DNA of 64,000 bases from a virus (IMGVR_UViG_3300028888_000002), one strand, 5' to 3'; positions 1 to 64,000 are shown, counted from the stretch's first letter. The notes: generated from the sequence alone by a model not told the origin. Numbers and translations are program-made.

Positions 1-15
1 CCATACTGAAATCCT

Positions 16-261
16 TTAAGAAATGTGATACTTGCACATAACGTAAAGCAGGCTGATTACAAGGGCACTGATTACGGTAATGCTCAACAGGACAACCGCC
101 TTGAACGGCTGCTTTCGGGACGCTTCCAGGTAACGACCGTGTTCATATTCCAGGGCTGCGTAAATGCTTGAAACAAGCAGGTAGTCGTCCTGGCTATCGC
201 TGACACTGTGGGCACGATACTGCTTGAACGCAGCTACACCTTGTTCATATTTGTTTGGCAT
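16..261 (-). CDS. hypothetical protein with C-terminal transmembrane segment
   Basis: ORF track; hydrophobic C-terminal stretch AVVLLSITVISALVISLLYV. Confidence 0.6.
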   Translation of the reverse strand: MPNKYEQGVAAFKQYRAHSVSDSQDDYLLVSSIYAALEYEHGRYLEASRKQPFKAVVLLSITVISALVISLLYVMCKYHIS

Positions 262-296
262 TCTGTTCCTCGTTAGGTTTATAGTTTCTTTTAAGC

Positions 297-575
297 CTAG
301 TTTGTTACTATAGGATTTCCTTTGAATACGTCAAACTCACTTTCAAAAGTGGCTTCGTCATAAACAACAATATCGTCACCGTTTTTAACAATATATGTGC
401 CAACTTGTGCCGTGTAACTAAATCCATTTGCGGTGCGAATGCAAATCGGAGACCCCTGTGCCACTACCGTTCCAGAGACGGACGCTCTACCTTTGCAAAA
501 GCGGAGAACTTCTAGTAAGTTGTCACCCCTGTAGTAAATGCAATCGCACACTGTTCCTTTAGTATTAGATGTCAT
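297..575 (-). CDS. hypothetical phage protein
   Basis: Start moved to MTSNTKG, whose ATG overlaps the upstream stop (ATGA). Confidence 0.55.
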   Translation of the reverse strand: MTSNTKGTVCDCIYYRGDNLLEVLRFCKGRASVSGTVVAQGSPICIRTANGFSYTAQVGTYIVKNGDDIVVYDEATFESEFDVFKGNPIVTN

Positions 576-1012
576 ATGGACCTTAACTTCTTTGGAGTTC
601 CTTTTTGTCTTAACAATGCTTGGTAGGCAAGTCCATTGCGAATGCGAGTCCACCTCCGCAGATTTGCCATAGCTTCGGAGGGGTCGGTGCCATCGTGCTT
701 GCACAATTCCACTTCCATTGCATAGTAGGCATATTGGCTGTGGGCATAAGCCATCTGTAGCCTGTGCAGGGCAGCAACGGCACCGTGGCGTTCTTGGCGA
801 AGTTTCTTTCTTCTGTCTCGGAAAATATCAAACAACTCCGACCATTTCTTGCGTTCGGCAAGGACTTGGTTGGACAAATCCTCAATGACTTTTTCCACAA
901 GTTCGGCAGGGTAGAAATCCACATATTCGTGGCGGTAGCCCCCGTGTTCGTCCATATAGAAATTGCGTTTGTGCCCCTTGAGGCGGTTCATAGCTAATGT
1001 CTTTACAGGCAT
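572..1012 (-). CDS. hypothetical protein
   Basis: ORF in tightly packed minus-strand array. Confidence 0.65.
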   Translation of the reverse strand: MPVKTLAMNRLKGHKRNFYMDEHGGYRHEYVDFYPAELVEKVIEDLSNQVLAERKKWSELFDIFRDRRKKLRQERHGAVAALHRLQMAYAHSQYAYYAMEVELCKHDGTDPSEAMANLRRWTRIRNGLAYQALLRQKGTPKKLRSI

Positions 1013-1013
1013 A

Positions 1014-1487
1014 TTACTTCACCCCCTTTTCATACGGAATGTCCCGCATAAATCCATTTTCGCCCATTTCGGTCAACGGACGATACTGTTCTGTGTCAAT
1101 GCCGATTTCCTGGACGATTTCTTTTGCAAGTTGCCATTCGCTGCCCTGTTCGCTGCCGTCCGTGGACCACCTGTCAATGACCCCGTGCTTCAAACAGACG
1201 ACAAGCCCCGCCTTTACTGCGGAGTCAAAATCATTGTCGCCTGGGTGCGTCCGAAGACCCCCGCAGTCCGTGATACCTAAACCCTTGTAGCAGTTGCAGT
1301 CAAAGTCAAGCGGTTCTTCGTCACCGCCCGTAAACTTCAAGGTGAAAGTCTTTTCGTCGTGGACGAACGCACAGCGAATTTTCCTTGCTTTGGCTGCACG
1401 GACGAGCGAACGCATATCCTTACAGAACTCTTTTGTAAGCGGGCGTTCACGCTGTTCAATGTTAATGTCGTAGTAGTTACCATACAT
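1014..1487 (-). CDS. hypothetical protein
   Basis: ORF in tightly packed minus-strand array. Confidence 0.7.
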   Translation of the reverse strand: MYGNYYDINIEQRERPLTKEFCKDMRSLVRAAKARKIRCAFVHDEKTFTLKFTGGDEEPLDFDCNCYKGLGITDCGGLRTHPGDNDFDSAVKAGLVVCLKHGVIDRWSTDGSEQGSEWQLAKEIVQEIGIDTEQYRPLTEMGENGFMRDIPYEKGVK

Positions 1488-1492
1488 AGTGA

Positions 1493-2098
1493 TTACCCCT
1501 GTGCGATAGCTTTTTGCTTCTGTTCAACAAAGTTCTGCGGGAACACGACACCCTCCAGGTCCTTTGCAGCCTGCATAGCGTCGCCCCAATCAAAGGACGG
1601 CTTACGGGTCTTTCCCTTGTTTTCGTCCGATGGCTTTGACAGCAGGTCCGCTTCTTGCAGGAACATATAGGACCAGGCTTCCATCTGCTTTTTCAACTGC
1701 TGCTTCAACTTCTTTTCGTATGCGTCCTTGCGGGAGCGATACATAATCATAAGTTCCCGCAGGATTCGGCTGTGGCAATCATACATAGCGTCGTCCATAA
1801 CCGTTTCAACGTAATAGTGCTTGTTTCTGCTGCCCTTGTAGGAATAAATGTCAAATTGGTCCTTTGTCAAGTGCAGGCGTTCGTAGAAGTATTGAACCAC
1901 GACCTGCAATTCCTTTCGGGTATAGTAGCCGAACTCACGCATTTTGCTAGTCCCCGTCACTTCGTCCAGGGTAATGCCATATCTAGCGATTAGCCTGTCA
2001 CGCAGACGGATAGCGTTTGCACGTTCGGGGTCCGATTCGTCGGAAACTTCAATGCGGTATTGCAGGTCACGCAAAATCTTCAAAACTTTGGAATCCAT
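1493..2098 (-). CDS. hypothetical protein, N-terminus DUF2786-like
   Basis: SDPERANAIRLRDRLIARYGI resembles the DUF2786 helix; AAGGA RBS upstream. Confidence 0.6.
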   Translation of the reverse strand: MDSKVLKILRDLQYRIEVSDESDPERANAIRLRDRLIARYGITLDEVTGTSKMREFGYYTRKELQVVVQYFYERLHLTKDQFDIYSYKGSRNKHYYVETVMDDAMYDCHSRILRELMIMYRSRKDAYEKKLKQQLKKQMEAWSYMFLQEADLLSKPSDENKGKTRKPSFDWGDAMQAAKDLEGVVFPQNFVEQKQKAIAQG

Positions 2099-2114
2099 AA
2101 TAAAATCCTTGTAG

Positions 2115-2145
2115 GAAAAATAGGCGGGGCTGCTGTGCCCCGCCT
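2115..2145 (-). terminator. intrinsic terminator
   Basis: AGGCGGGGC-6nt-GCCCCGCCT hairpin followed by ATTTTT on the minus strand. Confidence 0.7.
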
Positions 2146-2155
2146 GGGGTGAAAC

Positions 2156-2941
2156 TTACTTGGCACGGACCACGATTACACGGATATGCCAACAGACGAT
2201 ATTGTAACCGCCACATTCAATGGAGCGAACTTCACACTTGCCTGCGGTGCCCGTGAGGAAGCCGTTAATCACGGCATATCCCTGGGTGCCCGTAGTGACT
2301 TCAAGACCGCTGTAATCTTCGGTAGCACCGATATAGGACTTGATACGGTGGTGCAGGTCCTTGACAAGTGCCTGGGCATCTTCTTTGGCACGAATGTCAA
2401 GTTGTTCGTCGGTGGCTTCGGCAACACGCTTGAGGCTGTCCTGCACGTTCCACATACACTTGCCCTGGGACTTCCAATAGTCGTAGTTGCTCCACTTGCC
2501 TTCTTCCTTTAAGGTCTTGATACGCATAACAGCAATATCCCTGCGGGTCTTGTATTCGTAGGCGAAAGCCTTTGTCAAGTCAACTGCGTAATTTTGGAGT
2601 GCCTGCGGGATAGACTTGATTTCGGCTTCTGCGTCAGCCTTTTCCTTGCGGAGTCTTTCAAGTTCCATTTCGTCGCTAGTGATTTCACGGGTCCTGCGTT
2701 CAATGGATTCACGGGCGTTGTCAGCAGTAGAAATCGGACCGAAAGCCAATTCCCAATCGTTGAACATCGTGTGGGCGTTGTGAGAATCGTTGCCGTCACC
2801 GACGTAGGAGTAGCCCTTCTTCGCACACTTCGCAACAGCGTTGTTGAGGCGGACCTGTGCCTTTGCGATAGCGTCCTTATTCTTTTGAATGCGGGCGTAG
2901 GCACGTTCAATGTCTTTGTCAATGGTGCGGATATTTCTCAT
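2156..2941 (-). CDS. early coiled-coil hypothetical protein
   Basis: True start MRNIRT follows the ACCGAGGA RBS of promoter cassette 1. Confidence 0.75.
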   Translation of the reverse strand: MRNIRTIDKDIERAYARIQKNKDAIAKAQVRLNNAVAKCAKKGYSYVGDGNDSHNAHTMFNDWELAFGPISTADNARESIERRTREITSDEMELERLRKEKADAEAEIKSIPQALQNYAVDLTKAFAYEYKTRRDIAVMRIKTLKEEGKWSNYDYWKSQGKCMWNVQDSLKRVAEATDEQLDIRAKEDAQALVKDLHHRIKSYIGATEDYSGLEVTTGTQGYAVINGFLTGTAGKCEVRSIECGGYNIVCWHIRVIVVRAK

Positions 2942-2944
2942 TTT

Positions 2945-3034
2945 GGAATCCTCGGTTGAAGTGGTTGTCTTTCCTTTACGCCCTAAATATAACAAAATAC
3001 CTAGTCGTTGTCAACAGGTATTTTAAAAATTTTT
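2945..3034 (-). promoter_or_regulatory. early promoter cassette copy 1
   Basis: TTGACA(3014-3009)-17bp-TATATT(2991-2986); AT-rich UP tract; AATACCT..AGGTATT inverted repeat; leader ACAACCACTTCAACCGAGGA. Confidence 0.85.
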
Positions 3035-3043
3035 GAATTTTTT

Positions 3044-3223
3044 TCAAGGTCGCCCACAGCGGTGTCGGGCGAGAACTGAATTTCTGCGTCTAGCCCGTTC
3101 CGCAAGTTCCTGGGCTTCCCGTTTACGCCTGTTGTCTTCCCGTCTGCGACGTTCCGCTTCCTGCTCACGTCTGCTACGGGCTGCACTATCCAGGCAACAG
3201 ATTGCAGCAGCAGCCCCGAACAT
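3044..3223 (-). CDS. small Arg/Glu-rich protein (59 aa, not in ORF track)
   Basis: GGAGG RBS then MFGAAAAICCLDSAARSRREQEAERRRRE...; fills the gap between neighbours. Confidence 0.5.
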   Translation of the reverse strand: MFGAAAAICCLDSAARSRREQEAERRRREDNRRKREAQELAERARRRNSVLARHRCGRP

Positions 3224-3225
3224 AG

Positions 3226-3510
3226 CTATTCCTCCACGCAGGTAAAACTAACAGGATAGGGGTAGCGTTCCATATTTTGATTGTAGGCTCCCGCCCTAGT
3301 GCTTTGATAGTCCGTCTTGTTCTCAATGGAACACTTGATTTTCCTGGGCTTTTCAACAGGAATTTCCTGCTTTATGCAGACGGATTTCAAGCTAGGGTGC
3401 AGGGAGCTGCGGGCAGCTTCGCACTGCTGCAAATCCTGGAACGTCAAACGGGTGTCAACACCCCCTTGCCCTAGATAGACGATAACAAGAACGAATATGG
3501 TCTTAATCAT
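3226..3510 (-). CDS. hypothetical protein with signal-like N-terminus
   Basis: MIKTIFVLVIVYLG hydrophobic start. Confidence 0.6.
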   Translation of the reverse strand: MIKTIFVLVIVYLGQGGVDTRLTFQDLQQCEAARSSLHPSLKSVCIKQEIPVEKPRKIKCSIENKTDYQSTRAGAYNQNMERYPYPVSFTCVEE

Positions 3511-3666
3511 AAAGTTTACCTACCCTTATTTTTAGATATGACTTTTTGTAAATGTCGGGATATTCCTTGCATATTTCGGCAACCCTGTTTTCAGCAGATT
3601 TCCTAGATTTGCAAGACGCAAGATACCTATGGGTGCCACACGATTCGTCAAACACGTTGTAGATTT

Positions 3667-5822: not shown

Positions 5823-6035
5823 CTACTTCTTAATGTTGTGGGTGTCCACGTAGTTTTCGTTGCACAGGATTACCTGTTTGTTGCCAATGTAGGCATACAT
5901 ATATTCACCGCTAATGCCGTGCCAATCGGAGCAATCGCTTGCACCCATAGAAATGCTGGCACCATACTTCTTGAGCAGGTCCTTGAGTTCCTTTTTGAAG
6001 TTAGCGGGCGTGAGTTCTGCTGTCGCCATTATCAT
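5823..6035 (-). CDS. early hypothetical protein
   Basis: First gene after promoter cassette 2. Confidence 0.65.
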   Translation of the reverse strand: MIMATAELTPANFKKELKDLLKKYGASISMGASDCSDWHGISGEYMYAYIGNKQVILCNENYVDTHNIKK

Positions 6036-20833: not shown

Positions 20834-21517
20834 TCAAACTCCGATATTCCCGAACAGGTAGAACGGTCCTGTAAGTTGTCGGAGGCGTTGGTTCGCCACG
20901 TCGTAGTATTCCTTGCACAGTTCGGTCCCGATAAACTTTCGGGCTTCCAACACGGCTGCTTCTGCCGTGGTCCCGCTTCCAATGCAGGGGTCAAACACTA
21001 TATCCCCGTGGTTGGAACTAGCCCGTATGAGCCGTCTAAACAGGTCCAGGGGCTTTTCCGTCGGGTGTCGCTTGCTAGACCCGCAGGGGTGTCGCCATAC
21101 GGGGGATTGGCAGAACTCATTGAACGTTGCGTTGGACTTACGCATAAACACGCAGCATTCCACGGACGATAGCCAAAGGTGCTGCCCGTTCATAGGCGAT
21201 GGGTTCGTCTTTTCCCAAATACAGAGCCTTGTAGAAAGCCCCTTGTCAACTCCCGCCTTACGCAGCATAGACACCTGTTCTGTTCCACAGAAAATATAAA
21301 TGCTCCCCTTACAGATACGGATTACCTCGTCCATAAACTTGTCAAGCGGGAACGTTAGAACGTCGGCAGCTTCCTTGTTAATGTGACGCAGCCCGCCTTC
21401 TTCACGGTCGGAACATTCGTCGTAGGGAATATCCGTCAAGACCATATCCACGCAGTTGTCTTCTAGCCTTGCCATATATTCCAGGCAATCCATATTATAG
21501 AGTTTGTTCAATTCCAC
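20834..21517 (-). CDS. DNA N6-adenine/N4-cytosine methyltransferase, beta class (MTase 1)
   Basis: DCLE, TDIPY (motif IV), HPTEKP, DPCIGSGTT (motif I after IV). Confidence 0.9.
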   Translation of the reverse strand: MELNKLYNMDCLEYMARLEDNCVDMVLTDIPYDECSDREEGGLRHINKEAADVLTFPLDKFMDEVIRICKGSIYIFCGTEQVSMLRKAGVDKGLSTRLCIWEKTNPSPMNGQHLWLSSVECCVFMRKSNATFNEFCQSPVWRHPCGSSKRHPTEKPLDLFRRLIRASSNHGDIVFDPCIGSGTTAEAAVLEARKFIGTELCKEYYDVANQRLRQLTGPFYLFGNIGV

Positions 21518-25356: not shown

Positions 25357-25398
25357 AAGGGTTCCTTTTGTTTAAGGGTTAATCGGGTTAAAAAATAA

Positions 25399-25471
25399 TG
25401 GACGTGACAGGGCTTGAACCTGTAACCGTCGGGTTATGAGTCCGATGCACTAACCATTGTGCTACACGTCC
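25399..25471 (-). tRNA. tRNA with CAT anticodon (Met or Ile2), no encoded CCA
   Basis: GGACGTG acceptor pairs with CACGTCC+A; D arm GCAC-AATGGTTA-GTGC; loop CTCATAA; T arm ACAGG-TTCAAGC-CCTGT. Confidence 0.9.
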
Positions 25472-25483
25472 ATTTCAGCCTAG

Positions 25484-27127: not shown

Positions 27128-27910
27128 TCAAATTCCGATATTGCCGTAAATGTAGAACGGTCCCGTCAAGTCCCGCAGACGCTTGTTTGCCACTTCGCAG
27201 TATTCGGTATTTGTTTCAAATCCGATAAATTTGCGGTTTTCCATAACCGCAGCGACGGCAGTAGTCCCGCTACCCATACAGTTATCCAGGACCACTTCGC
27301 CAGGATTCGTGTAGGTTCTCACCAGGTATCGGATTAGGTCAACGGGCTTTTCCGTCGGGTGCAATTTGTTGGCGTGGACGGGCGTAAAGCTAATGATAGA
27401 TACGGGGTGTTTGTCCGTATAGACATTCTGCTGTTTAGCCATTGTATTCTTATGCAGCAGCCCGCAGGTGTTAAGCCCCCCGCCATTTCGCACGGGAACG
27501 TCCCGTAGGGTCTTTTGGGGATAATACCGCATAGAGTGACCGTTGTTGGTGAAACAAGCACTGCTCTTGCTGAATACGCTAATCAATTCGTGGATTCTAC
27601 CGCATTGGTAGTTCATTAGCTGAAAGTTGCTAGGCTTTTCCTTGTTCCAAACCCAATCGTAACGATACATAGCCACGTTGCTCGCACGTAGCAGGCTGCT
27701 GAATGGTTCGGAACCGAACAGGACAATAGCCCCATCTTCACGGATAACCCGCTTATACTGTTCCCACAGCGGTTCAAACGGGATAACAGAATCCCACTTG
27801 CAGGCGGTAGTCCCGTAAGGCAAATCGCAGATTATACAGTCAACGGAGCCGTCGGGGATTTCTTTCATACCCTCCAAACAGTCCATATTGTAAATGCGGT
27901 TCAAATCCAT
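27128..27910 (-). CDS. DNA N6-adenine/N4-cytosine methyltransferase, beta class (MTase 2)
   Basis: DCLEGM, CDLPYG, HPTEKP, DNCMGSGTT. Confidence 0.92.
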   Translation of the reverse strand: MDLNRIYNMDCLEGMKEIPDGSVDCIICDLPYGTTACKWDSVIPFEPLWEQYKRVIREDGAIVLFGSEPFSSLLRASNVAMYRYDWVWNKEKPSNFQLMNYQCGRIHELISVFSKSSACFTNNGHSMRYYPQKTLRDVPVRNGGGLNTCGLLHKNTMAKQQNVYTDKHPVSIISFTPVHANKLHPTEKPVDLIRYLVRTYTNPGEVVLDNCMGSGTTAVAAVMENRKFIGFETNTEYCEVANKRLRDLTGPFYIYGNIGI

Positions 27911-28727: not shown

Positions 28728-31412
28728 TCAATGTGCAGCCTCAAACTTCGCCTGCCAATTTTCGGGCATACCCTCGGTCCGCAAGGCTCCCACTTCTGTC
28801 ATTTTAGCCCAGGACCCGTCAACGTAAGACGCATCGGCTTCAATGACAAGCGGAACGCAAATCCACGGAAATTCTTCGCTTACACGCTTCACACCGTTGC
28901 CATAGACAATCTTCGCCACCTTGTCTTCTTCGCCCTCTTTAACGAGAGCAATAATAGCGTCGTGAATTTGTCCGATAATGCAGGAAAGCAAGCCCTGGGA
29001 CTTGAAGTCCTGCAAGTCGTAGGTCAATGCTCGCAGCAAGATATGGAACGCAGACCCTTGAATGCAGCAGTTCGTAGCCTGGGTGTAGCCCATAGGTCCC
29101 CAACAGCGGAAACCCGTGTAGGACTGCACATAGCCCATCTTTTGATAGCGGTCCCATTCGGTCCTACGCCACGCATTATAGACCTTGAAGCGTTGGTTCC
29201 AAAATATATCGTCGCCTTTCTTGACGTGTGCTTCCCACTTTTCGTAGGTCGTAATCTTGTGGTCCTTTGCCAAATGTTCCTTCGTGTAGGCAGGCATATT
29301 GTTCCACATATTTCGGGCACACGACTTGTAGGACGCACCGTAGAACGACGAGAACACATAGCCCGATTTGATAGACGAGCGTTCTTCCTTTGTAAGTTCT
29401 TCGGGCGTTCGGATATACATATCGCAAGCAGTATCACGGTGCATATCCGAAGCGGGGTTCTGCAAGTAGTGAATCATCTGCGGGTCGTGGTGATAGCTTG
29501 CGGACACCATAACTTCCAGGGACTTGTAGTCCATTTCCATAAAGCGGTAGCCCTTTGGAGCCACGAACAACGTTCGCAGGATTTTCTTCATTTCCTTATC
29601 ACGCTTCGGAATGTTTTGAAAGTTCGGGCTGTCAGCCGACGAACGGTAGGTTCGGGGACCCGCATCGTCTTCACCGCCCGCACCCGTTGACAGGTTAAAG
29701 AACGGACGGATTAGGTAGGCTTGCTTTTCTTCGTCCCATACGGCTTCACGTCTGTAGCCATCCAGGAAGTCCATAATCTTTGCCCAACGACGCATTCCCA
29801 AAATGGACTTGCAGAACGGGGTTCCCAACTTTTCCAGGGTGTCGCCCGTAGCGTCTTCCTTACCCGAAGGCGGTTTCAGCTTGCAAATCTTGTAAAGGAC
29901 TTCGGCAATTTGTTTGTTAGAGAGCGGGTTGAAAGTTTCGCCAGGGTGCAGCTTGCACCACTGCTTCGCTTCGTCGGACGCTTTGACGGCTTCTTCGGAT
30001 TCCTTGAACTTGTCTTCAAGTTCCTTTTGCAAGTCGTTAATCCTGCCATAGTCAATCGGCAAACCCTCGGACTGCACACGGGCGAGAGCGTCCATACCTT
30101 TCATAAAGAAGCGGAACGACTTTTCAAGACCAACCATCTGTGCGGACTGAATGTCACGCAGCGGGAGCGTATAAATGGAGTCAAGACCGCAATAGTAGAT
30201 AATGTCGCCTTTGGGGACACCCACGCCCTTTTTGAGCAGGTTAAAGGCGTTGCAGCTCTTTGTGTCTTCCCCGTCCATAATCGTAGAAATGAAATGGTCC
30301 GCTTTGTTGTCGTAGCCGATAACGCCCAATTCACAGTAGGTGTGGAATTTCAGCCCAACCTTTTGGGAGTTGTCTAGGACGTGGGCACCCAGGCAAGTGT
30401 CCCAGGACCAATTATCAATCCAATCTGTGCGGGAGTTATGCAGACCCGCCCTAAACCTGGTCCAACAGGCTTCATAGTCAGCCTTGTGTGCAACCAACCC
30501 TATTTTCTTGTGGTGCGTGAGTTTATACCAGGCATTCACCAGGCGTTCGTTGTCACCGTCCCACCAAATACCGATAGCGTGATACTCACCGTCCTTACGA
30601 TAGCCGACGGACGCAGCCTTGATTTCGTGACCTGCACGGTGGGGTTTCAAGCCCGTGGTTTCGTAATCAATGGAAACGTCGTGATAGCCTTCGGGAGCCT
30701 TGTCAAGTTGGTCTGTTTCAGCCCATTCAATGATTTCTTCAATCCAATCGGCTGCGGTGTCTGCATCGCCTGTGGTGCGAACGTCCGTCGGTATTTTCGG
30801 CAGCGGGGTATCTTTTATTTGATAGGCTAGACGGATATGCTGCGAGAAATACATATACGGGCAACCGTCGTCACGCTGCCAGGTCAAAAATTCGGGCGAG
30901 TAGGTCGGGCAAATCCAACAGTTGTAGAAGCGGTCGGGAATGCGTTTACCGTAAAGGTCCGACGGCTTCGTGTTGCCGATACGTCCGCTCATACGGTCCC
31001 AAATAAGTGCCTGGATAGCTGCGGGACCCATAGGAATGATTACGTTCGGCTTCAATTCGTTAATGAGCCTGTTCAAGCGTTCCTTGCAACAGTCGGGCTT
31101 CGGGTCCTTGTCGTTTTGACACGGGCACGGGATTACATAACCAATCCAGGCGGATTCCAGGAAATCCCTGGGCAGTCCACGCCTACCCTGCAAGTCCCAA
31201 AGATAATCATACATTTTATGTAGGAACACCGTGTCGTGGTCGTTGCCTTCCTTTCCACGGGGGTGGTCGCACAGGAACAGAACCTTGTCCTTGCCCTTAC
31301 CCGCAAACGGTAAATCCTTGCCCGATTGGTCTAATCCGCAGGCTAGACAGCCTGTAAGTTTCGGCTTCGCTGACATTGCTTGAATGGCAGCGGGAATTTT
31401 GAAAAAGCCCAT
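28728..31412 (-). CDS. polA: family A DNA polymerase with N-terminal UDG-family-4-like domain and 3'-5' exonuclease
   Basis: CLAC..CC UDG-like N-terminus; DYETTG exo I; RSSADSPNFQNIP; motif A DYKSLE; motif B RSSIKSGYVFSSFYG; motif C IHDA. Confidence 0.92.
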   Translation of the reverse strand: MGFFKIPAAIQAMSAKPKLTGCLACGLDQSGKDLPFAGKGKDKVLFLCDHPRGKEGNDHDTVFLHKMYDYLWDLQGRRGLPRDFLESAWIGYVIPCPCQNDKDPKPDCCKERLNRLINELKPNVIIPMGPAAIQALIWDRMSGRIGNTKPSDLYGKRIPDRFYNCWICPTYSPEFLTWQRDDGCPYMYFSQHIRLAYQIKDTPLPKIPTDVRTTGDADTAADWIEEIIEWAETDQLDKAPEGYHDVSIDYETTGLKPHRAGHEIKAASVGYRKDGEYHAIGIWWDGDNERLVNAWYKLTHHKKIGLVAHKADYEACWTRFRAGLHNSRTDWIDNWSWDTCLGAHVLDNSQKVGLKFHTYCELGVIGYDNKADHFISTIMDGEDTKSCNAFNLLKKGVGVPKGDIIYYCGLDSIYTLPLRDIQSAQMVGLEKSFRFFMKGMDALARVQSEGLPIDYGRINDLQKELEDKFKESEEAVKASDEAKQWCKLHPGETFNPLSNKQIAEVLYKICKLKPPSGKEDATGDTLEKLGTPFCKSILGMRRWAKIMDFLDGYRREAVWDEEKQAYLIRPFFNLSTGAGGEDDAGPRTYRSSADSPNFQNIPKRDKEMKKILRTLFVAPKGYRFMEMDYKSLEVMVSASYHHDPQMIHYLQNPASDMHRDTACDMYIRTPEELTKEERSSIKSGYVFSSFYGASYKSCARNMWNNMPAYTKEHLAKDHKITTYEKWEAHVKKGDDIFWNQRFKVYNAWRRTEWDRYQKMGYVQSYTGFRCWGPMGYTQATNCCIQGSAFHILLRALTYDLQDFKSQGLLSCIIGQIHDAIIALVKEGEEDKVAKIVYGNGVKRVSEEFPWICVPLVIEADASYVDGSWAKMTEVGALRTEGMPENWQAKFEAAH

Positions 31413-34853: not shown

Positions 34854-37076
34854 TTAGCGACCAAACCTGGCACCCTTGCGTTCCAGGATTTCTGTCAGCA
34901 AGTCGGTGGAAGCGGTTTCCTTTCCGTCCAAAACGCCATCAAGCATTTTCGCCCTAGCGTCCAGGACTTCAATGGCTTCCATATCCACGGTTCCAGGTGC
35001 TACAAGATAGTAAGAAGTGACGGAGTTATGCTGCCCCGACCTGTGCAGACGGTCTTCTGCCTGCCTGTGGAAGTTCGGGGTGTGCGAAAATTCAGCGAAA
35101 GCCACATCGGAGCAGACTTCCTGGAAGCCGTCAATGCCGACACCGCCCGCCTGGATATTGGCGACGATTACACGGCACTTTGGGTCGTTAATGAACTTCT
35201 TACGGGTTTCTTCACGTTCCGTGGCGGTCATACCGCCATAGATAATCGCAGGGCTGTAATCCTTGAGCGTGTCATAGAGGACTTCCACGACGGAGCGGTG
35301 CCACGCAAACAGCAGCAACTTCTTGTCCGATTCCAGGAAGTCTTCAATCCACTGCAACATAGACTTCTCTTTGAGAGCGTAGGCGGTTCGGAGCAGGTGG
35401 GCGACCTTATTGCGGGCGTTCTCACGTTCGCCCTTGATAGTTTCACCCGAAAATGCGATACGTTCCTCTTCGTAGTAATCGTCCATAGCGGATTGGTCCA
35501 CTTCAAGCGGGACGACTTCCATAACTTTGGGCGGGAGGTCTTTCATTACTTCGTTCTTCGTCCTGCGGAGCATACAGCGGACAAGCAGTTCGTGGAGTTC
35601 TTCCACATTGGACGCACCGTTGAACTTTACCCTGCCATAGCTGTCAGTCTGCGGGTCACAATACCTGTTCTTGAACATATAGAAGTTCTTGAACATAGAC
35701 GGCTCCACGATAGAAAGCAGCGTCCAAAACTGCATAGGCTTTGACATAGCGGGCGTTCCGCTCATACCGATACAGTGCGGGATAATCTTTGAGAGTTCCT
35801 TGAAAGCGATAGCTCTTTGAGAGTCGGGGTTTCCGATAGCCTGCACTTCGTCGCCTACAAGCAGACGGAACCCAACCTGGGCAAGCGGACCATCGCACAC
35901 GTAGAACACGTTGGTTTTACCGTTGCGTTCGGTGGACTCAAAGTGCCCCGCCCAATCCGAAAGCACGTCCCAATTTATGATATAGCTCTTATACTTTGAC
36001 AGCGGGTGCGGGGTCTTACCGCTCAACACTTCAACGTCGGGATAATGCTTCTTTGTAGCCCCTACCCATTTCCTATACGCTTCCTGCCACTGCAACTTCG
36101 TAGGGGCGTTCACCACATAAAGAGCGGGATAGGCATTCGCATAGACCATCCAGGACAACGCTTCTACGGTCTTACCGCAGTTGTGGACGACTGTATGGTT
36201 CGCAACAAAGTTCCCGAAATTCAGCACCTTTACGTCGTAGGTCATTCGCATTCCTGCGGACGTGATAGACACGACTTTCGCCATAGCGGACTTGCCGTCC
36301 CTTTCAACCTGGACGTATGCGTTCAAGGTGTCCTTGATTTCGGTCCAACCACTATCCGTAAGCACCTTATGGTCGGGCGTGGCAATAATGTAGGTATCGT
36401 CTTCAAGGGTAGCGTGGACGCAGCGTTTGATACCGCTTTGGATAACGTCCACGACTTCACCCATACCCAACGTATGCCCGTCTGCCAACAAACACTGAAT
36501 ATCCCAATCGCACGTCCCCTTTGTCCTGGCGAAAGCACGATACAGGGATTCCAGGGAAGTCTTGCGGGTCTTCCCGTTATTTCGGACGGTCACGGTCATA
36601 TCGCCACAGACGCAACCCATTTCGTCGCCCAGGGCAAGGCGACCGTGACGGAGCTGTGCGAACTTCAAGAAATCAATTTGGTAAGAACGCAGCCCAGGAA
36701 TAAGGGTTCCTTCGGGGTCCAACTTCGTAGCGTCAATCTTTGCCTGCTGCTTAACACGGGGGTCTTCACGCTTTTCGTTGGGGTCCTTTTCTTTCGGGGG
36801 ATTTGTCCAACCCGAAGCCTCCATCCAGGTCTTCGTCCCAATGTTCCAGGGAACTTCCCATTTTTGAGTCGCAGCGTTGTATTGACGTTCGGGCAGCTTG
36901 CGAACGCCTTCAAGAACTTTCTTCCAGGCATCCTTGTTATACGTGAACCAGGTCAACGCCACAATGGACTTGTCAACTTTCGTAAATTCGGCTTCATATC
37001 GCACACCCGCAATAGGTTCAATGGGCGTGGGGGCACGGCTCAATCTGTCCGACAAGCCAATAAGGTCATAACTCAT
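34854..37076 (-). CDS. SNF2/SMARCAL1-like helicase with HARP-like N-terminus and mini-intein
   Basis: LRSYQ, DEMG|CGKT, DEVQ, MSGTP, LRRTK, AGGVGID, QAEDRLHRSGQ. Confidence 0.9.
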   Translation of the reverse strand: MSYDLIGLSDRLSRAPTPIEPIAGVRYEAEFTKVDKSIVALTWFTYNKDAWKKVLEGVRKLPERQYNAATQKWEVPWNIGTKTWMEASGWTNPPKEKDPNEKREDPRVKQQAKIDATKLDPEGTLIPGLRSYQIDFLKFAQLRHGRLALGDEMGCVCGDMTVTVRNNGKTRKTSLESLYRAFARTKGTCDWDIQCLLADGHTLGMGEVVDVIQSGIKRCVHATLEDDTYIIATPDHKVLTDSGWTEIKDTLNAYVQVERDGKSAMAKVVSITSAGMRMTYDVKVLNFGNFVANHTVVHNCGKTVEALSWMVYANAYPALYVVNAPTKLQWQEAYRKWVGATKKHYPDVEVLSGKTPHPLSKYKSYIINWDVLSDWAGHFESTERNGKTNVFYVCDGPLAQVGFRLLVGDEVQAIGNPDSQRAIAFKELSKIIPHCIGMSGTPAMSKPMQFWTLLSIVEPSMFKNFYMFKNRYCDPQTDSYGRVKFNGASNVEELHELLVRCMLRRTKNEVMKDLPPKVMEVVPLEVDQSAMDDYYEEERIAFSGETIKGERENARNKVAHLLRTAYALKEKSMLQWIEDFLESDKKLLLFAWHRSVVEVLYDTLKDYSPAIIYGGMTATEREETRKKFINDPKCRVIVANIQAGGVGIDGFQEVCSDVAFAEFSHTPNFHRQAEDRLHRSGQHNSVTSYYLVAPGTVDMEAIEVLDARAKMLDGVLDGKETASTDLLTEILERKGARFGR
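36180..36614 (-). mobile_element. mini-intein (145 aa, no homing endonuclease) in the helicase Walker A motif
   Basis: Starts CVCGDMTV (block A), ATPDHKVLT (block B TxxH), TYDVKV..NFVAN (block F), VVHN|C (block G). Confidence 0.92.
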
Positions 37077-37079: not shown

Positions 37080-38135
37080 TTAACCATTCCTATAATCGGG
37101 GATTGTTACGTTACGGTTCGTTCGGCACCACTGCACGAAACGGAACCACCTTTCATTTCCAGGATAGATAAACGTCAATGGAAGCACCTTGCCGTTGGCA
37201 GACGCATTCCATTCTTTCACAAGCGTTACCGCCATACCTACGTCGGCAAGACGGACCCTGTTATCCACCACGGACATAAGCATATCACGGTTGGCGTAAT
37301 ACCAATCCACAAACTTCTTTACACCGTTCCAATAGGTAGCCATAGAAGTGGACGGCATACCCCGCAGGTATTCCGAATCCTTGATAGCCTGTTCCGCAGC
37401 GGTTACAGCCAACTTCGGGAGTGCGGATTTGATAGCGGTGTCCTTGTTCATTTCCCACAGGACCTCGCAAAACGGACTCCATTCCGTGCCCGCCTTTGTC
37501 TGCGAGCAAAGGAACGAAGCCAGGGACTTGCGGGGTATCTTCCCGTTCTCAATGGGCGGGAACCAATACCCGCCATTCTTGTGGGCGTTTTCCACGTAGT
37601 CCAGGCATTTTTCAATAGTGTCTAGGGCAGACGGAATGTCGGCAAACTTTTCTTTCAAGAGAGTGGGACCGCCCCCTTTCTGTTCGGTCTTCGCCAACCA
37701 TTTCTTGTCCCACTTGTGGGAGTTCACGAAAAATCCCGTCGCAAGCCAAACGACTTCACGGCAGGTCGTGTCCCAAACATTACTGCTCAACTTCGTTACG
37801 GACAGGAACGAATAGGACTGCGTGAGTTCGTGAAGCCTGCTCAAATCGGCATCGGACATACTGTCCTTATGGGCGACCAGGTGCAGGTTAAATCCACGCT
37901 TGGGGGCTTCTGCTTTTGGCTTCGGCTTGGGCTGCTTCGGTCGGTCCTCACGGATTGTTGCGTGGGTTCGGACAACAGAAAAACGGGGGGCAGCGAACTG
38001 TTCCGTGAACAGGTCTTGTGCTTCCAGGCGAACTTCAAGAATATCCTTGCCACGGACGACGACACGGGCAGAAACGCCCTCGTTTTTCAGCCATTCGTTC
38101 AACTTGGGCAAAAGTGTGTTAGCTGTTTCTGCCAT
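37080..38135 (-). CDS. hypothetical protein in the replication block
   Basis: Long ORF; start MAETAN overlapping the upstream stop. Confidence 0.7.
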   Translation of the reverse strand: MAETANTLLPKLNEWLKNEGVSARVVVRGKDILEVRLEAQDLFTEQFAAPRFSVVRTHATIREDRPKQPKPKPKAEAPKRGFNLHLVAHKDSMSDADLSRLHELTQSYSFLSVTKLSSNVWDTTCREVVWLATGFFVNSHKWDKKWLAKTEQKGGGPTLLKEKFADIPSALDTIEKCLDYVENAHKNGGYWFPPIENGKIPRKSLASFLCSQTKAGTEWSPFCEVLWEMNKDTAIKSALPKLAVTAAEQAIKDSEYLRGMPSTSMATYWNGVKKFVDWYYANRDMLMSVVDNRVRLADVGMAVTLVKEWNASANGKVLPLTFIYPGNERWFRFVQWCRTNRNVTIPDYRNG

Positions 38136-38515
38136 CACGCACCCTTTAACGTCTTCCACTTTTGCAGCATTTGTTCAAACGTGCCCAACGGTATCGGGCA
38201 GGTCTTGATAAAGATATTCCCCAATTTCTTCTGTGACAAATCCGCTTCGGACAATGCAGGAGCTATCGGGAGCATTTTGCCACGATAGAGCGGGTCAAAC
38301 CATACAGCGGACGGCTTCCACTTGCGTCGCTGCATTTCACGGATTACCTTGCCGTGATACCAAACCAATGAACCCCAGGGGAGTGCATAGAACCAGGTCC
38401 TCACATTCGTGGGGCTACGCCACTGCGACGAGCGGATTTTACAAATGTCCCTGTGCAGGGCTGTCAGCAGCCTGTCGGGTAGTTCGGGTAAAAGATTAGG
38501 GTGCCAAAGTTGCAT
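38135..38515 (-). CDS. pyrimidine-dimer DNA glycosylase/DenV-related (TIGR02328-like) protein
   Basis: MQLWHPNLLPELP..LL...HRD...YH..V.REM.RR.W....W.DP.YRGK. Confidence 0.7.
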   Translation of the reverse strand: MQLWHPNLLPELPDRLLTALHRDICKIRSSQWRSPTNVRTWFYALPWGSLVWYHGKVIREMQRRKWKPSAVWFDPLYRGKMLPIAPALSEADLSQKKLGNIFIKTCPIPLGTFEQMLQKWKTLKGA

Positions 38516-58663: not shown

Positions 58664-59299
58664 TTATTTGATTAAAAGCACGTTATAAGCGTCCAAGCCC
58701 GAAGTAGTTTGATACGGGACACGCATACGGAAATCCCCACGAATCCCGCTAGTGTAGTCGTCGTCGGGGTTAAATTGAATAAGGCAGTAACCCCCGTCGC
58801 ACGGGTCCACGGTCCCCGTCAAGAACCGCATATCCCGCCCGTAGTTTTTGTTTATGCCCCACGCACTGTCTTCAACAAAGCAGTATTCGTGGTAGCCCCC
58901 TACACGGTCCAGGAACGCTTTGGTGTTCTGTAAATAACTGTCACGGATATTGTCGGTAGGGTTGGAATTAGCCTTACCCTGCGTGGCACCCATATAGCGG
59001 GCAGCGTCAATGAAATCGTCAATGGTCGGCAAACGCCAACCGTTCGGCAGTTCACTCAAAATGCGTTTAATAGCCGTGGTCGTGTAGTAGTAAACCCTGT
59101 CGGCAAAGTCCACGGCATAAACGCCCCGACCAAAGTCGTCAATGCTCAAACGTTTTGCAGTCCAGGTCTTGCCGTTAATCGCCACGGTTTCGGGGTTGAA
59201 ATCCTTTACAGGCGTGACGGGGTGACTATAAAGGGTATTGGCATACCCGATAAAGTCGGACATACCCATATTACTTACGAGGTTACAGTCTAATGCCAT
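58664..59299 (-). CDS. Fibrobacter succinogenes major paralogous (FISUMP)-like domain protein
   Basis: ETVAINGKTWTAKRL...YYYT...LPNGWRLPTIDDF matches the TVxIGxQxWMAENL...PxGWHLPSxxEW pattern. Confidence 0.65.
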   Translation of the reverse strand: MALDCNLVSNMGMSDFIGYANTLYSHPVTPVKDFNPETVAINGKTWTAKRLSIDDFGRGVYAVDFADRVYYYTTTAIKRILSELPNGWRLPTIDDFIDAARYMGATQGKANSNPTDNIRDSYLQNTKAFLDRVGGYHEYCFVEDSAWGINKNYGRDMRFLTGTVDPCDGGYCLIQFNPDDDYTSGIRGDFRMRVPYQTTSGLDAYNVLLIK

Positions 59300-60059: not shown

Positions 60060-61385
60060 TTACATACAGCAAATGTCTTGCCGTGTGAGCGGGCGACCGC
60101 AGACGGGGCAGGCTACGCCCTCAAGGTCGCTGTATGCGTCGTCCAGGTAGTCGTTGCAATCCGAAATATCCTCTACGGCACCCCTGTAATTATGGATTGA
60201 GCGGGATAGTGCCGAAAGTTCCCTGTCGGACCACTTGCACGGCTTCGGGGCTTTCAGCTTCGCAATTTTCCCCAGGGCGGTATCGGCAACGTCCAGGGTT
60301 TCAGTGACTTCTTCGTAGTTACGGATAGACTGCACTAGCGGACGCAGGCGACCTTCCCATTTGCACGGCTTCGGTTCCTGCAAGTCTTCCAGGGCGTTCA
60401 AAGCGGACCTGCACCGACGATAGCGGGTCACGACGGAGCCATACTGCGTGATAGAATCCGAAAGGGCTACAAGTTCCTTTTCCGTATGCTTCGGGGGCTT
60501 CGGGAACACCAGGGCACCCAACTTTTCAAGGGCGGGCGTTACACGGGCGAGAACACGGCAGGTCCCGACGTAGTTGTTGCAGACTTCAAGTTCCTTTTCC
60601 AATCCCTTGATTACTGCGGACTTGTCCCCGTTCTCAAGCCATTCGGGGATTTCGGGGTAGTTCTTGATAGCCTTGTAATCGTCAATCGTGCGTTTGAGTG
60701 CTTCCAACTTGCGGGTGAGTTCGTCAATCTTCGGCTGCGTAGCCTTTGCCTTTTCGTAAAGGTCTTCGGCTTTTTCCACCCAACTGAATGACCCCACGGA
60801 CTTTTCAAGACCCTCAACCGTTTCCTGTGCGGTGTTCACCAGGTCCGACGTGTCGGAAACCTTACGCTTTGCAAGCGTAAGAATATCGTCAACGCATTCA
60901 AGCCCCGCAAGTTCGTTCAAGTATTTGGACGCTTCGCCTGGTGTAGCTGCGAGCAGGAACGGTGCGTCAAACTGCTTCTGCACGGAAGCGTCTGCCAGGT
61001 TGAACAGCTTCGTGACGGCTTCGGGCACGTCGGTTCGGAGTGCTTCGTAAACCGTGTCGTCCACAATGTAGCCGTTAAAGGTGTTGGACCGCTTGCGTTC
61101 TACTACGTGACCGTCCACCACTATCGTCACGGACGTATATTCGTCGTCCTTGAACTTAATAGTGCTGCTTTCCTTTGTCGTCGGTTTCTTGCTAGGCTTC
61201 GTCTGCTTCTGTGCCCAATACGATACGAAGTCGTGCGGGGCTTCGTTGAAAAGGACCCAATAGAACGCACGTAGCACGGCTGTCTTGCCGTGGTTGGAAC
61301 CACCCTGCAAAACGGTGGAACGCCCCAGGTCCAATTCAAGGTCCTTGTGGCATTGGAAATTGTGCAATTTAATCTTTGTTATCAT
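60060..61385 (-). CDS. SbcC/Rad50 (gp46-like) N-terminal half: Walker A, Q-loop, coiled coil, zinc hook
   Basis: MITKIKLHNFQCH, GGSNHGKTAVLRA, VQKQFDAPFLL, ends CPVCGRPL. Confidence 0.85.
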   Translation of the reverse strand: MITKIKLHNFQCHKDLELDLGRSTVLQGGSNHGKTAVLRAFYWVLFNEAPHDFVSYWAQKQTKPSKKPTTKESSTIKFKDDEYTSVTIVVDGHVVERKRSNTFNGYIVDDTVYEALRTDVPEAVTKLFNLADASVQKQFDAPFLLAATPGEASKYLNELAGLECVDDILTLAKRKVSDTSDLVNTAQETVEGLEKSVGSFSWVEKAEDLYEKAKATQPKIDELTRKLEALKRTIDDYKAIKNYPEIPEWLENGDKSAVIKGLEKELEVCNNYVGTCRVLARVTPALEKLGALVFPKPPKHTEKELVALSDSITQYGSVVTRYRRCRSALNALEDLQEPKPCKWEGRLRPLVQSIRNYEEVTETLDVADTALGKIAKLKAPKPCKWSDRELSALSRSIHNYRGAVEDISDCNDYLDDAYSDLEGVACPVCGRPLTRQDICCM

Positions 61386-61410
61386 AATAGTATATAGTCG
61401 TGTAGCGTTA

Positions 61411-61614
61411 TTATTGCTGCGAACCCAACTGCATAAATTCGTGAAGTTTGCGTTGGCAGTCTTCGCACAGGTTATAGTTCACGTATGAATGTGCGTATTC
61501 TTCGTGGCAGTTGGACCAATCCGTATTCGCCACGACCTTTACAGAACCGCCCATATCCAGGGTGTTGTTGTATCGGGCGGGCTTGCTGTGACAGCGGGAG
61601 CATTCACCGTTCAT
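61411..61614 (-). CDS. small zinc-binding protein
   Basis: CSRC...LCEDC. Confidence 0.55.
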   Translation of the reverse strand: MNGECSRCHSKPARYNNTLDMGGSVKVVANTDWSNCHEEYAHSYVNYNLCEDCQRKLHEFMQLGSQQ

Positions 61615-61702
61615 AAAGACCCCTATTGGTTGCTAATGCAAAGGAACAGCATTCCTGCTGCCCCTAGAATGAACGCTAGTCCATACTGCAAGATTTTGAA
61701 AA

Positions 61703-62338
61703 TCACTTAATGAGTTCCTTCGGCAAAAGGCGTTCCCTGGTTTCGGGGTAGCGACAAATCAAGTAGCCACGGAGCATAGCGTAATAGACCTTGTAAAGAC
61801 CCTGTGCAGGACCGTAAATGTGCGTATCAATTTGGAAGAACGCACTCAAGAACGGCAGCAGCGGATTGTCTGCGTAACGCTTGACGGGTAAATCCTTCGT
61901 GTATTCGTCCATACACGGGAACATCACCAACGGACGTTCCGTTATAGCGACAACGCAAATGGGGGTTTTCTTATAGGCGTAGGTAAACTTCGTTACGCTT
62001 TTCAGCTTCTCAACGTTTTCAGTCAAGCCCAAACTCTTTGTAAGGCTGCGGGCGAAGTCTGCCAAGAAATTGAACTGTTCCTCGGAGCAGTCCATAAGGC
62101 TTTCAAGAATGCCCTGGGGCTTTTTATTACGCAAGCGTTCAAGCAGGCACTTGCCCAACTTCGTGACCTTGTAACCCCACGGGTCCGTTTCTTTCTTTGC
62201 GGGCTGTGCCTTGTCTTCAATATCCTTGCGACGCTTTACGCTCTTTTCAAGAGTCTTGCGACGTTCTGCAATCCTTTCAAAGACAGCCTTGTATTTAGGC
62301 TTTTCGTCTTTTACGGGTTTCTGTTTTTTGGTAGCCAT
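61703..62338 (-). CDS. hypothetical protein with basic N-terminus
   Basis: AACCGAGG RBS. Confidence 0.65.
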   Translation of the reverse strand: MATKKQKPVKDEKPKYKAVFERIAERRKTLEKSVKRRKDIEDKAQPAKKETDPWGYKVTKLGKCLLERLRNKKPQGILESLMDCSEEQFNFLADFARSLTKSLGLTENVEKLKSVTKFTYAYKKTPICVVAITERPLVMFPCMDEYTKDLPVKRYADNPLLPFLSAFFQIDTHIYGPAQGLYKVYYAMLRGYLICRYPETRERLLPKELIK

Positions 62339-62555
62339 TTCGTTTCCTCGGTTTTTGTGAAAAGTTGTATGAATAAGTTTGTCCGTTGTCGGACAAGCAG
62401 CCTGCCGTAACGTCCAGGCATTGAAAGGTCCGTGAAACTTCGTCGTCCACCTGGGGTTCTACAAGTTTACGGAGTTCCGTTTCGGACAAGGTGCTGCTGT
62501 TCGCAGACACCTTAACCGTCACGGTGTAAGTCTTTTCAAAGACCAATTTAGCCAT
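62295..62555 (-). CDS. hypothetical protein
   Basis: Start MAKLVFE. Confidence 0.5.
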   Translation of the reverse strand: MAKLVFEKTYTVTVKVSANSSTLSETELRKLVEPQVDDEVSRTFQCLDVTAGCLSDNGQTYSYNFSQKPRKRNGYQKTETRKRRKA

Positions 62556-62751
62556 TAAGCCATTCCTCTTCGGGGATAACCTTGATACGCTTTGTAACTT
62601 CGGATATAAACACGTCGTCACCTAGATTTTGGCTCTTAACAAAGGTGGCGTGTTCCACAGCGGATTTCTTTGTCCCGAACGTTGCGGTATAGTTTTCGTG
62701 TGAAACCTTGTCATACCAGGTTACGTTATATTCAATAACTGCGTTTTCCAT
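62548..62751 (-). CDS. hypothetical protein
   Basis: Start MENAVIE after AAGGA. Confidence 0.55.
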   Translation of the reverse strand: MENAVIEYNVTWYDKVSHENYTATFGTKKSAVEHATFVKSQNLGDDVFISEVTKRIKVIPEEEWLNG

Positions 62752-62801
62752 TTTTGTTTTCCTTTTCTTAAAGTGGCAAGGATAAAATAACAAAAATGTT
62801 T

Positions 62802-63383
62802 TTAGAACGAATACTCTTTGTCTGCGTCAATATCGGTTCCCGCCACGTCGCCAACCATAAGGACTTGAACGCCTATCTTGTCCACAAGCGTAGCGATTAC
62901 CTGCCCAAGTTCCTTACGGGGCTTGACTTCTTCACCGTCACGCAAATGCCCGAACGGTTCGTCAAGCAGCAAGAACGGTCGCTTGCCTGCAAGACGCAAG
63001 CAGCCGACACGCAGGGCGAAGCTAACGGAGTCAACTAGACCGCCACCCGAAGAATCCAACGGGTCCAACTTCGCACCGCCCTTACAAATACGGAACTCCG
63101 TGTCAACCTTGCCACGCTTCGGGACAAAGTTCACGGCAAATTCATAACCAGGGAAAAGCAGGTCCAGGCAATTCTGCACGGACCTTTGAACAGCGTCTTT
63201 AAGTTGGTCCTGCGTCTTTGACGCAACGTCCTGCAAGAGAGCCAGGGCTTTCTTTTGGTTGCTGCAATCAGCCTGCAAGCCTTCCAACTTCTTTCGGTTG
63301 TCTGCAAGCGACTTTTCGGCAAGGTCAAGTTGGGCACGACCCGACACGACTTTCTTGTGAAAATCTTCCAGGGTCAGCGACAT
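62802..63383 (-). CDS. SbcC/Rad50 C-terminal half: coiled coil, ABC signature, Walker B
   Basis: PLDSSGGGLVDSVSFALR, FLLLDEPFGHL. Confidence 0.85.
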   Translation of the reverse strand: MSLTLEDFHKKVVSGRAQLDLAEKSLADNRKKLEGLQADCSNQKKALALLQDVASKTQDQLKDAVQRSVQNCLDLLFPGYEFAVNFVPKRGKVDTEFRICKGGAKLDPLDSSGGGLVDSVSFALRVGCLRLAGKRPFLLLDEPFGHLRDGEEVKPRKELGQVIATLVDKIGVQVLMVGDVAGTDIDADKEYSF

Positions 63384-63625
63384 TACACACCCGCTTCGGT
63401 AAGAAGTTTGTCGGCAGCTTCAAGGTATTCTTCCTGGGCTGCACGGTTGTCTTCAAGTTCCTGCTCAATCTTTTCCTGCAACGCTTCGGCTTCTGCAAGG
63501 GAAGAAACGTTGTAGTCACGCTGCCAGGTTTCTTCAATAGCCTTTTTCTTGCCCTCGGCTTCGGAGCGTTGATTTTTGAGTTTGTCAATACGGGCTTTGA
63601 CGTTTTCAATATCTACTGTTGCCAT
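63383..63625 (-). CDS. 80-aa coiled-coil protein coupled to the Rad50 C-half
   Basis: Heptad pattern; TAATG overlap with the next gene. Confidence 0.7.
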   Translation of the reverse strand: MATVDIENVKARIDKLKNQRSEAEGKKKAIEETWQRDYNVSSLAEAEALQEKIEQELEDNRAAQEEYLEAADKLLTEAGV

Positions 63626-63670
63626 TTTTCGGTTTTCCTTTTTGGTTCTAATTGTTATATAGTCCGTGGG

Positions 63671-64000
63671 CTACTTTTTTTCTTCGGGGACATAGGAATC
63701 AATAATGTCCTGTGTAGCCTTGCGAACTTCCTTGTCCTTTTCTTTCAAAATCGCAGCCTGCACGTTTGCGATAAAGTCAAGGTGCGGGACTTCAAAATCC
63801 TGCAAGCCTTCCAGGTAGGTTTCAAGTTCCTGGCGGGATTCACGCTTCGGGTCGGGGTGGACCTTTCCGAACTTTTTGAGCGGGACTTCCTTTACGGACA
63901 AATCGGACGTGTCAAGAATGTAGCAGCGGGGCTTGTAGTCTTCCATATCCGAAGCCTGGATATTCAAGCAGCCACAGGTCACGACGGACGCATTCTTGAA
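63671..64000 (-). CDS. SbcD/Mre11 (gp47-like) nuclease, C-terminal part (truncated by the window edge)
   Basis: VVTCGCLNIQASDMEDYKPRCYILD resembles the NPGS..R...D....P tail of SbcD; adjacent to the Rad50 halves. Confidence 0.55.
   Translation of the reverse strand, partial: FKNASVVTCGCLNIQASDMEDYKPRCYILDTSDLSVKEVPLKKFGKVHPDPKRESRQELETYLEGLQDFEVPHLDFIANVQAAILKEKDKEVRKATQDIIDSYVPEEKK

What the first reader, a model, noticed from the sequence alone, without database searches (positions are those of the whole stretch)
1..64000. CCAG/CTGG occurs almost only as CCWGG: footprint of a host defence motif neutralised by overlapping methylation
Seen by eye: in the stretches I scanned (about 1-9 kb, 45-50 kb and spot checks), CCAG is followed by G and CTGG is preceded by C in nearly every case, across dozens of sites. 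The only exceptions I noticed were CCAGA at 472-476 and GCTGG at 5955-5959. CCTG followed by C or T is common, so this is not simple codon bias. TCAG also seemed to be followed only by C or T (tentative). Inference: hosts restrict an asymmetric CCAG site (type IIG/III/BREX-like), and the phage has purged every instance except those inside CCWGG, where cytosine methylation by a phage MTase or host Dcm-like enzyme blocks recognition. This predicts CCWGG as the target of one of the four MTases. The rare exceptions may mark recently acquired genes.
Basis: partly seen in the sequence, partly recalled or inferred. Interest (0 to 1): 0.75.

Follow-up and report, generated by a model that had tools for sequence, protein, structure and literature searches.

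The report
Phage purges CCAG except within CCWGG
A large rumen phage has removed the four-letter DNA word CCAG from its genome everywhere except inside CCWGG, which points to an undescribed host restriction target that is probably masked there by methylation, but probably not by the four methylases in this window.

Summary
Observation confirmed. Over both strands CCAG occurs 373 times: 371 as CCAGG, 2 otherwise (about 300 expected). Codon-preserving nulls and strain SNPs (1 gain against 34 expected; CCWGG gains 5 against 4) show live, specific selection. It is one of about 50 purged words in a ~215-kb rumen phage clade. Pro-Gly forces CCNGG, so a phage cannot lose both CCAG and CCGG. This lineage dropped CCGG and freed CCWGG; a sister lineage dropped all CCAG (0 against 195) and kept CCGG. 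The CCWGG excess is mostly a codon sink, not Vsr drive. Best reading: a host defence targets the 4-mer CCAG and CCWGG methylation exempts it (0.6). The prediction that one of the window's four methylases does this is not supported: three are absent or broken in lineages with the exemption, the fourth is intact in a lineage without it. Remaining candidates: a host enzyme, or a fifth phage methylase 23 kb upstream. Host, nuclease and methylation are all unobserved. First readers noted the same pattern in neighbouring windows of this genome; I found no note on other DNA.

The parts
1..64000 (.). Genome-wide footprint: 371 CCWGG sites (236 CCAGG and 135 CCTGG on +), only 2 CCAG sites outside CCWGG; continues in 29 kb upstream on an identical contig
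472..476 (+). Exception 1, CCAGA; Ser-Gly codons of a 92-aa ORF (297-575, minus) with no homolog in the relatives fetched, GC 0.42
5955..5959 (-). Exception 2, CCAGC on the minus strand; Ala-Ser codons of a 68-aa ORF (5823-6029, minus) with a 66% homolog in a relative, so probably a point mutation and not a new gene
20834..21517 (-). Beta-class amino-methylase A (DIPY, short recognition region). Absent at this locus in L135 and G004, frameshifted in G011 and other strains that keep the exemption
27128..27910 (-). Beta-class amino-methylase B (DLPY). Cassette gene: missing in conspecific L139, replaced in G001, absent in G011 and L135
27914..28726 (-). Beta-class amino-methylase C (DLPY). Absent in G011 and at this locus in L135
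56919..57767 (-). Beta-class amino-methylase D (DLPY). An intact 87% ortholog sits in a lineage that has purged CCWGG

Best explanation
Hosts of this phage clade carry a DNA-targeting defence, most likely a type II-like restriction enzyme, whose target is the non-palindromic 4-mer CCAG/CTGG. The phage escapes by synonymous removal of every site, as it does for about 50 other words (depletion and ongoing selection shown; host enzyme inferred). Pro-Gly can only be written CCNGG, so one of CCWGG or CCSGG must be tolerated (follows from the genetic code). In this lineage CCWGG is made harmless, most likely by methylation inside the overlap (inferred): an inner-C mark falls inside the CCAG site on both strands, an adenine mark on the CCAGG strand. 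Freed from selection, CCWGG became the sink for codons pushed out of neighbouring forbidden words (shown). The protecting enzyme is probably not one of the four beta-class methylases. Within this reading I put a methylase conserved in the host at about 55%, the fifth phage methylase 23 kb upstream at 30%, and one of the four or an unseen gene at 15%.
For: Counts and nulls. Strain SNPs: CCAGH gains 1 against 33.8 expected, like CCGG 0/28.8 and GATC 0/25; CCWGG gains 5 against 4.3. All 37 Pro-Gly pairs are CCWGG, and optional-frame CCWGG is 236 against 94, so it is free and not merely tolerated. Lineage Y: CCAG 0/195, all 29 Pro-Gly as CCSGG, CCGG kept. Lineage Z: optional CCWGG 9/69 and CCAGH 21/160, the same ratio 0.13. 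The three CCAGH words rise and fall together across genomes. G008 avoids CCWGG without avoiding CCAGH, so pressure on CCWGG exists in the host pool and the window lineage must be shielded from it or have left it. Constrained shuffle gives about 270 CCWGG against 300 seen. CC(m6A)G is a measured phage methylation motif (PMC4190342).
Against: No methylation data, no host and no nuclease identified. G008 shows that CCWGG can be avoided on its own, so loss of both classes in Y and Z does not prove a single 4-bp target. No phage methylase is positively tied to CCWGG; 71-78% homologs of the fifth enzyme sit in other phages where CCWGG is depleted. Lineages are few, related and often fragments; gene calls are crude.
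Confidence: 0.6

Rival explanations
1. The host enzyme natively recognises the degenerate 5-mer CCAGH (G excluded at position 5). CCWGG is a separate matter: either no such system in this lineage's hosts, or a separate EcoRII/BstNI-type system neutralised by methylation.
For: Fits every count in the window. G008 shows independent CCWGG avoidance (optional 15/69 against CCAGH 161/184), so Y and Z could lose CCWGG for that reason.
Against: Needs equal depletion of two unrelated targets in Z (0.13 and 0.13) and total loss of both in Y. A terminal H is uncommon among recognition sites (from memory).
Confidence: 0.2
2. Three unrelated asymmetric 5-bp systems, one for each CCAGH word (BsrI-like ACTGG, BspNCI-like CCAGA and an unknown third; names from memory), add up to an apparent 4-mer.
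For: The phage also depletes other asymmetric words such as CCTTC, CCAAG and CCTGA, so the host pool has many such systems.
Against: The three words co-vary across genomes (G007 0.11/0.05/0.05, G008 1.14/0.91/1.38, G009 0.31/0.29/0.46), whereas TCAGA and TCAGG vary independently.
Confidence: 0.08
3. One reading: one of the four window methylases modifies CCWGG and provides the exemption.
For: Beta-class m4C enzymes for CCWGG exist (M.MvaI, M.BstNI; from memory). D is present in every exempt lineage where its locus was seen.
Against: The near-complete G011 phage (222 kb, about 990 CCWGG, under 20 CCAGH) has only D intact and A frameshifted. L135 has none of A, B, C at their loci, yet CCWGG 95/37 and CCAGH 0/95. 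D is intact and 87% identical in lineage Y, with 1 CCWGG in 35 kb.
Confidence: 0.08
4. Mutational drive: very-short-patch (Vsr) repair converts CTWGG to CCWGG and shapes the pattern without selection.
For: CCAAG/CTTGG is low (24/178) where CCWGG is high.
Against: Cannot remove CCAGC or CCAGT while sparing CCTGC and CCTGT. Where G007 has CCAAG in the xCC-AAG frame (78 sites) the window escapes by any synonymous route, and CCAGG is not among the seven commonest states. The constrained shuffle explains most of the excess. No Vsr found in the phage genomes searched.
Confidence: 0.03

Closest known systems
Restriction-site avoidance in dsDNA phages (Rusinov et al. 2018, PMC6286503; review PMC8410138)
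   Same: Synonymous purge of short words on both strands in a dsDNA phage; CCAGH behaves like the purged palindromes CCGG and GATC in the SNP test.
   Different: The word is a 4-bp non-palindrome, purged almost completely, with one exempt context. That survey found no systematic avoidance for type I and III sites and places type IIG close to type I.
Blocking of restriction enzymes by overlapping Dcm (CCWGG) methylation (established knowledge, from memory)
   Same: A site is immune only where it overlaps CCWGG.
   Different: Known from enzyme assays on E. coli DNA; here read from a genome-scale evolutionary footprint. No C5 methylase found in the part of this phage examined.
M.Phi15I, CC(m6A)G, and M.Phi145II, CY(m6A)G, of lactococcal 936 phages (PMC4190342)
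   Same: Shows that CCAG is a real phage-relevant motif.
   Different: Those phages methylate CCAG and this one purges it. M.Phi15I is alpha-class and shows no similarity to the fifth methylase here.
Orphan beta-class (PF01555) phage methylases
   Same: The four window enzymes belong here.
   Different: Their presence does not track CCWGG retention; their targets remain unknown.

Membership tests
Restriction-site avoidance (type II-like) | Word depleted beyond codon and Markov nulls on both strands | tested here: met
Restriction-site avoidance (type II-like) | Ongoing purifying selection against new sites | tested here: met
   1 gain against 33.8 expected among conspecific strains
Restriction-site avoidance (type II-like) | A host carries a nuclease for that word | not testable with these tools
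   Host not identified; only weak hints (Fib_succ_major-like gene below cut-off)
Overlap protection by CCWGG methylation | Exempt context is exactly CCWGG and is selectively neutral | tested here: met
Overlap protection by CCWGG methylation | CCWGG is methylated in phage DNA | not testable with these tools
   No methylome data available
Overlap protection by CCWGG methylation | One of the four window methylases tracks the exemption | tested here: not met
Overlap protection by CCWGG methylation | The fifth phage methylase tracks the exemption | tested here: inconclusive
   Present in this genome, L298 and G007, absent in G008; its locus not seen in Y or Z; homologs in other phages give mixed signals
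Dcm/Vsr system | C5 cytosine methylase and Vsr encoded by the phage | tested here: not met
   Four are PF01555; no PF00145 in G001 or on the G011 phage contigs; no Vsr. About a third of this genome was seen only through a relative.
Dcm/Vsr system | Directed CTWGG to CCWGG conversion | tested here: not met
BREX | 6-bp non-palindromic motif (from memory) | tested here: not met
   All flanking bases 5' of CCAG are used and the purge covers the whole 4-mer in lineage Y
Type III / IIG restriction | Asymmetric site, usually without systematic avoidance | tested here: inconclusive
   Asymmetric yes, but purged in both orientations; PMC6286503

The most novel reading that the evidence does not exclude
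Rumen bacteria carry a widespread, undescribed restriction system with the 4-bp asymmetric target CCAG. The fifth phage methylase, a 220-aa M.TaqI-like catalytic domain that lacks the separate C-terminal recognition domain, was acquired to mark CCAGG, solving a genetic-code bottleneck: phages purge what they can and methylate the sites that Pro-Gly forces them to keep.
Probability: 0.15. Interest if true: 0.7.

Novelty: new variant of a known kind. Interest (0 to 1): 0.5.

Why it matters
The footprint names a concrete target, CCAG, for a host defence that I could not find described as a restriction site in the searchable literature, and it gives a testable prediction for an uncultured phage and its host. 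It also shows a general constraint that is easy to test elsewhere: Pro-Gly, Ala-Ala and Gly-Pro force CCNGG, GCNGC and GGNCC, so site purging has a floor, and sister phages solve it in opposite ways. Reading which forced sites are free and which are merely tolerated is a way to infer methylation and host range for uncultured phages. The underlying strategies (site avoidance, overlap blocking) are known.

Tried and rejected
Vsr drive: rejected. By-product of other purged words or codon bias: rejected. One palindrome YCWGR uniting the TCAG and CCAG patterns: rejected, since G008 loses TCAGA (0.07) but keeps CCAGA (1.14). A mirror exemption in lineage Y (CCGG only inside CCSGG): rejected, 33 of 183 sites are GCCGGA; the gaps match two ordinary 6-mer classes. 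A relaxed methylase marking A in any SSASS context: rejected because CCAGC is purged. Assigning targets to methylases by word content of other phages that carry homologs: no consistent signal. Homology of the fifth methylase to M.Phi15I: none. A sixth, NPPF-type methylase found in G007, G011 and Y is absent from the window and G001. Host identification failed: the genome scan returned only distant methylases, ENA contigs are not held for whole-record search, no genus search by name, IS homologs led to another phage, and all sequencing runs are gut metagenomes. Fishing for the fifth methylase's locus in lineages Y and Z found nothing, which shows nothing. Laying contigs on the methylase region showed cassette rearrangement near B and C in one run but cannot show expression. 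Paper searches found no CCAG restriction enzyme; the library is incomplete.

Full report
The observation. Expected under an order-2 Markov model: 125 CCAGG and 308 CCAGH. CCTGH is at expectation (437/413), so the target is asymmetric. A codon shuffle of 49 kb of genes gives 266 +/- 13 CCAGH against 0. A swap chain that keeps codon counts and forbids every other rare word still gives about 350, so the gap is not a by-product. It is the only 4- or 5-mer in the window restricted to one following base. TCAG followed by a purine is also zero.

What the window is. It is the replication and early region of a ~215-kb phage from ruminant guts. It has purged about 50 words: eight palindromic tetramers, several pentamers, some thirty hexamers and gapped palindromes. 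An ENA contig of 219.5 kb is 100% identical over 31.8 kb and was used to read 29 kb further upstream, where the pattern continues. The host is unknown; a Fib_succ_major-like gene is a weak hint towards Fibrobacter or Bacteroidota.

Selection is live and specific. Among 1,170 isolated SNP alleles in conspecific strains, changes creating CCAGH number 1 against 33.8 expected, the same behaviour as CCGG (0/28.8) and GATC (0/25). Changes creating CCWGG number 5 against 4.3 (alleles are not polarised). An IS607-like insertion in one strain carries 24 CCAGH in 3.7 kb. Of the two window exceptions, one lies in an ORF without homologs in relatives, the other in a gene shared with a relative.

The genetic-code bottleneck. 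Pro-Gly can only be written CCN-GGN, so it always contains CCAG on one strand or CCGG. In the window all 37 Pro-Gly pairs use CCWGG, all 67 Ala-Ala use GCWGC and all 31 Gly-Pro use GGWCC, while the avoidable CTNAG is zero. CCWGG in the optional frames is 236 against 94, so it is free. Relatives, placed on a polymerase tree, solve this differently. The window's clade (G001, G010, G011, L135) has no CCGG and free CCWGG. Lineage Y (L138, L149, L011) has CCAG 0/195, routes all 29 Pro-Gly through CCSGG and keeps CCGG. Lineage Z uses CCSGG mainly where forced and depletes optional CCWGG and CCAGH equally (0.13). G007, sister to Z, is intermediate (optional CCWGG 41/84, CCAGH 10/190). G008 does not avoid CCAGH but does avoid CCWGG. 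So CCAG avoidance is clade-wide but variable, and the exemption is lineage-specific. G008 also means that a natively degenerate CCAGH site cannot be excluded.

The CCWGG excess. It is 2.6-fold over a plain codon shuffle, but about 270 of 300 sites are reproduced once forbidden words are enforced and partly depleted words are capped. CCAAG is separately avoided: where G007 has it before Lys, the window escapes by any synonymous route. Vsr drive is therefore not needed.

Which enzyme. The four window methylases are beta-class amino-methylases, not C5 enzymes. A is missing at its locus in L135 and G004 and is frameshifted in G011 and other strains. B is missing in conspecific L139. The nearly complete G011 phage, 222 kb with about 990 CCWGG, has neither B nor C. 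D is present in the exempt lineages seen, but an intact 87% ortholog with a similar recognition region lies in lineage Y, with one CCWGG in 35 kb. None tracks the exemption. I found it 23.2-23.8 kb before the window: 220 aa, NPPY motif, fold like the M.TaqI catalytic domain in a modest model (pLDDT 63). It is present in L298 (94%) and G007 (75%), not found in G008, and falls in an assembly gap in G011. Its locus was not recovered for Y or Z, and homologs in other phages give mixed signals. It is the last known phage candidate, not a demonstrated one. A methylase shared by all hosts of this lineage would give the same footprint and fits the poor match between phage methylase content and retained words.

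Mechanism. Shown: the purge, the neutrality of CCWGG, the Pro-Gly constraint, the sink. Inferred: a host enzyme on CCAG; methylation of CCWGG; its source. Near-total loss in both orientations resembles type II avoidance more than type I, III or IIG, for which a survey found no systematic avoidance (PMC6286503). CC(m6A)G is a measured motif of a lactococcal phage methylase (PMC4190342); I found no CCAG restriction enzyme in the searchable papers.

Verdict. A real and unusually clean footprint; a new variant of known anti-restriction behaviour. Interest 0.5.

Noticed in passing
window 1-64000: W-centred pentamer palindromes forced by dipeptides are kept and free (GCWGC, GGWCC), their S-centred forms are zero; CGWCG is kept and CGSCG is zero. 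In G007 the same words are kept mainly where forced, and the dipeptides themselves are under-used.
   Followed up: partly
window 1-64000: TCWGA is purged while TCSGA is free in every lineage including G008; CCTGA is a separate purged word; CCAAG is under weaker, more recent avoidance in this species.
   Followed up: partly
window 20834-21517; L286 (G011 C182 60518-61220); P0338, P0339: Methylase A is frameshifted in several relatives, apparently at short homopolymer runs in two different places; possible phase variation.
   Followed up: partly
window 20834, 27128, 27914, 56919 (gene ends): All four methylases, and unrelated beta-class types in relatives, end in the same 13-residue tail; the slot after the polymerase holds 0 to 3 exchangeable methylase genes.
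   Followed up: partly
L280:14827-15489 (23.2-23.8 kb before the window): Fifth methylase, M.TaqI-like catalytic domain only; homologs in many phages, often annotated as hypothetical or oxidoreductase.
   Followed up: yes
L284:635-1546; L382:17457-18374; G007 93107-94018: A further NPPF-type methylase with no significant Pfam hit in three relatives, absent from this species' window and from G001.
   Followed up: partly
L018:1013-2993; L042:9827-16133: G007 and G008 carry a split C5 methylase between helicase and clamp genes; in G007 small ORFs with repeated recognition-like peptides lie between the halves, in G008 an intein-like insert and a TnpB. Absent at this locus in the window.
   Followed up: no
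window, minus strand, near 2993, 6077, 9092, 13667, 20330, 44922, 55636, 60005: Repeated early promoter-leader with a short inverted repeat bracketing the -35 box, like an operator.
   Followed up: no
window 58664-59299: Fib_succ_major-like gene (E 2.5e-5, below cut-off; Atlas agrees); weak host hint.
   Followed up: partly
window 28728-31412, 34854-37076, 38135-38515, 25398-25472: Family A polymerase with a weak UDG-like N-terminal match; SNF2 helicase with a weak intein match; pyrimidine-dimer glycosylase; tRNA-Met.
   Followed up: no
L060, L283-L296 (G011): A GTDB genome labelled Clostridia bacterium RGIG7175 contains about 222 kb of a phage of this clade, probably mis-binned.
   Followed up: partly
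L142:14700-18400: IS607-like insertion (resolvase, NUMOD1 protein, TnpB) that breaks most purge rules but has no GATC, suggesting that its donor also lacks that word.
   Followed up: partly
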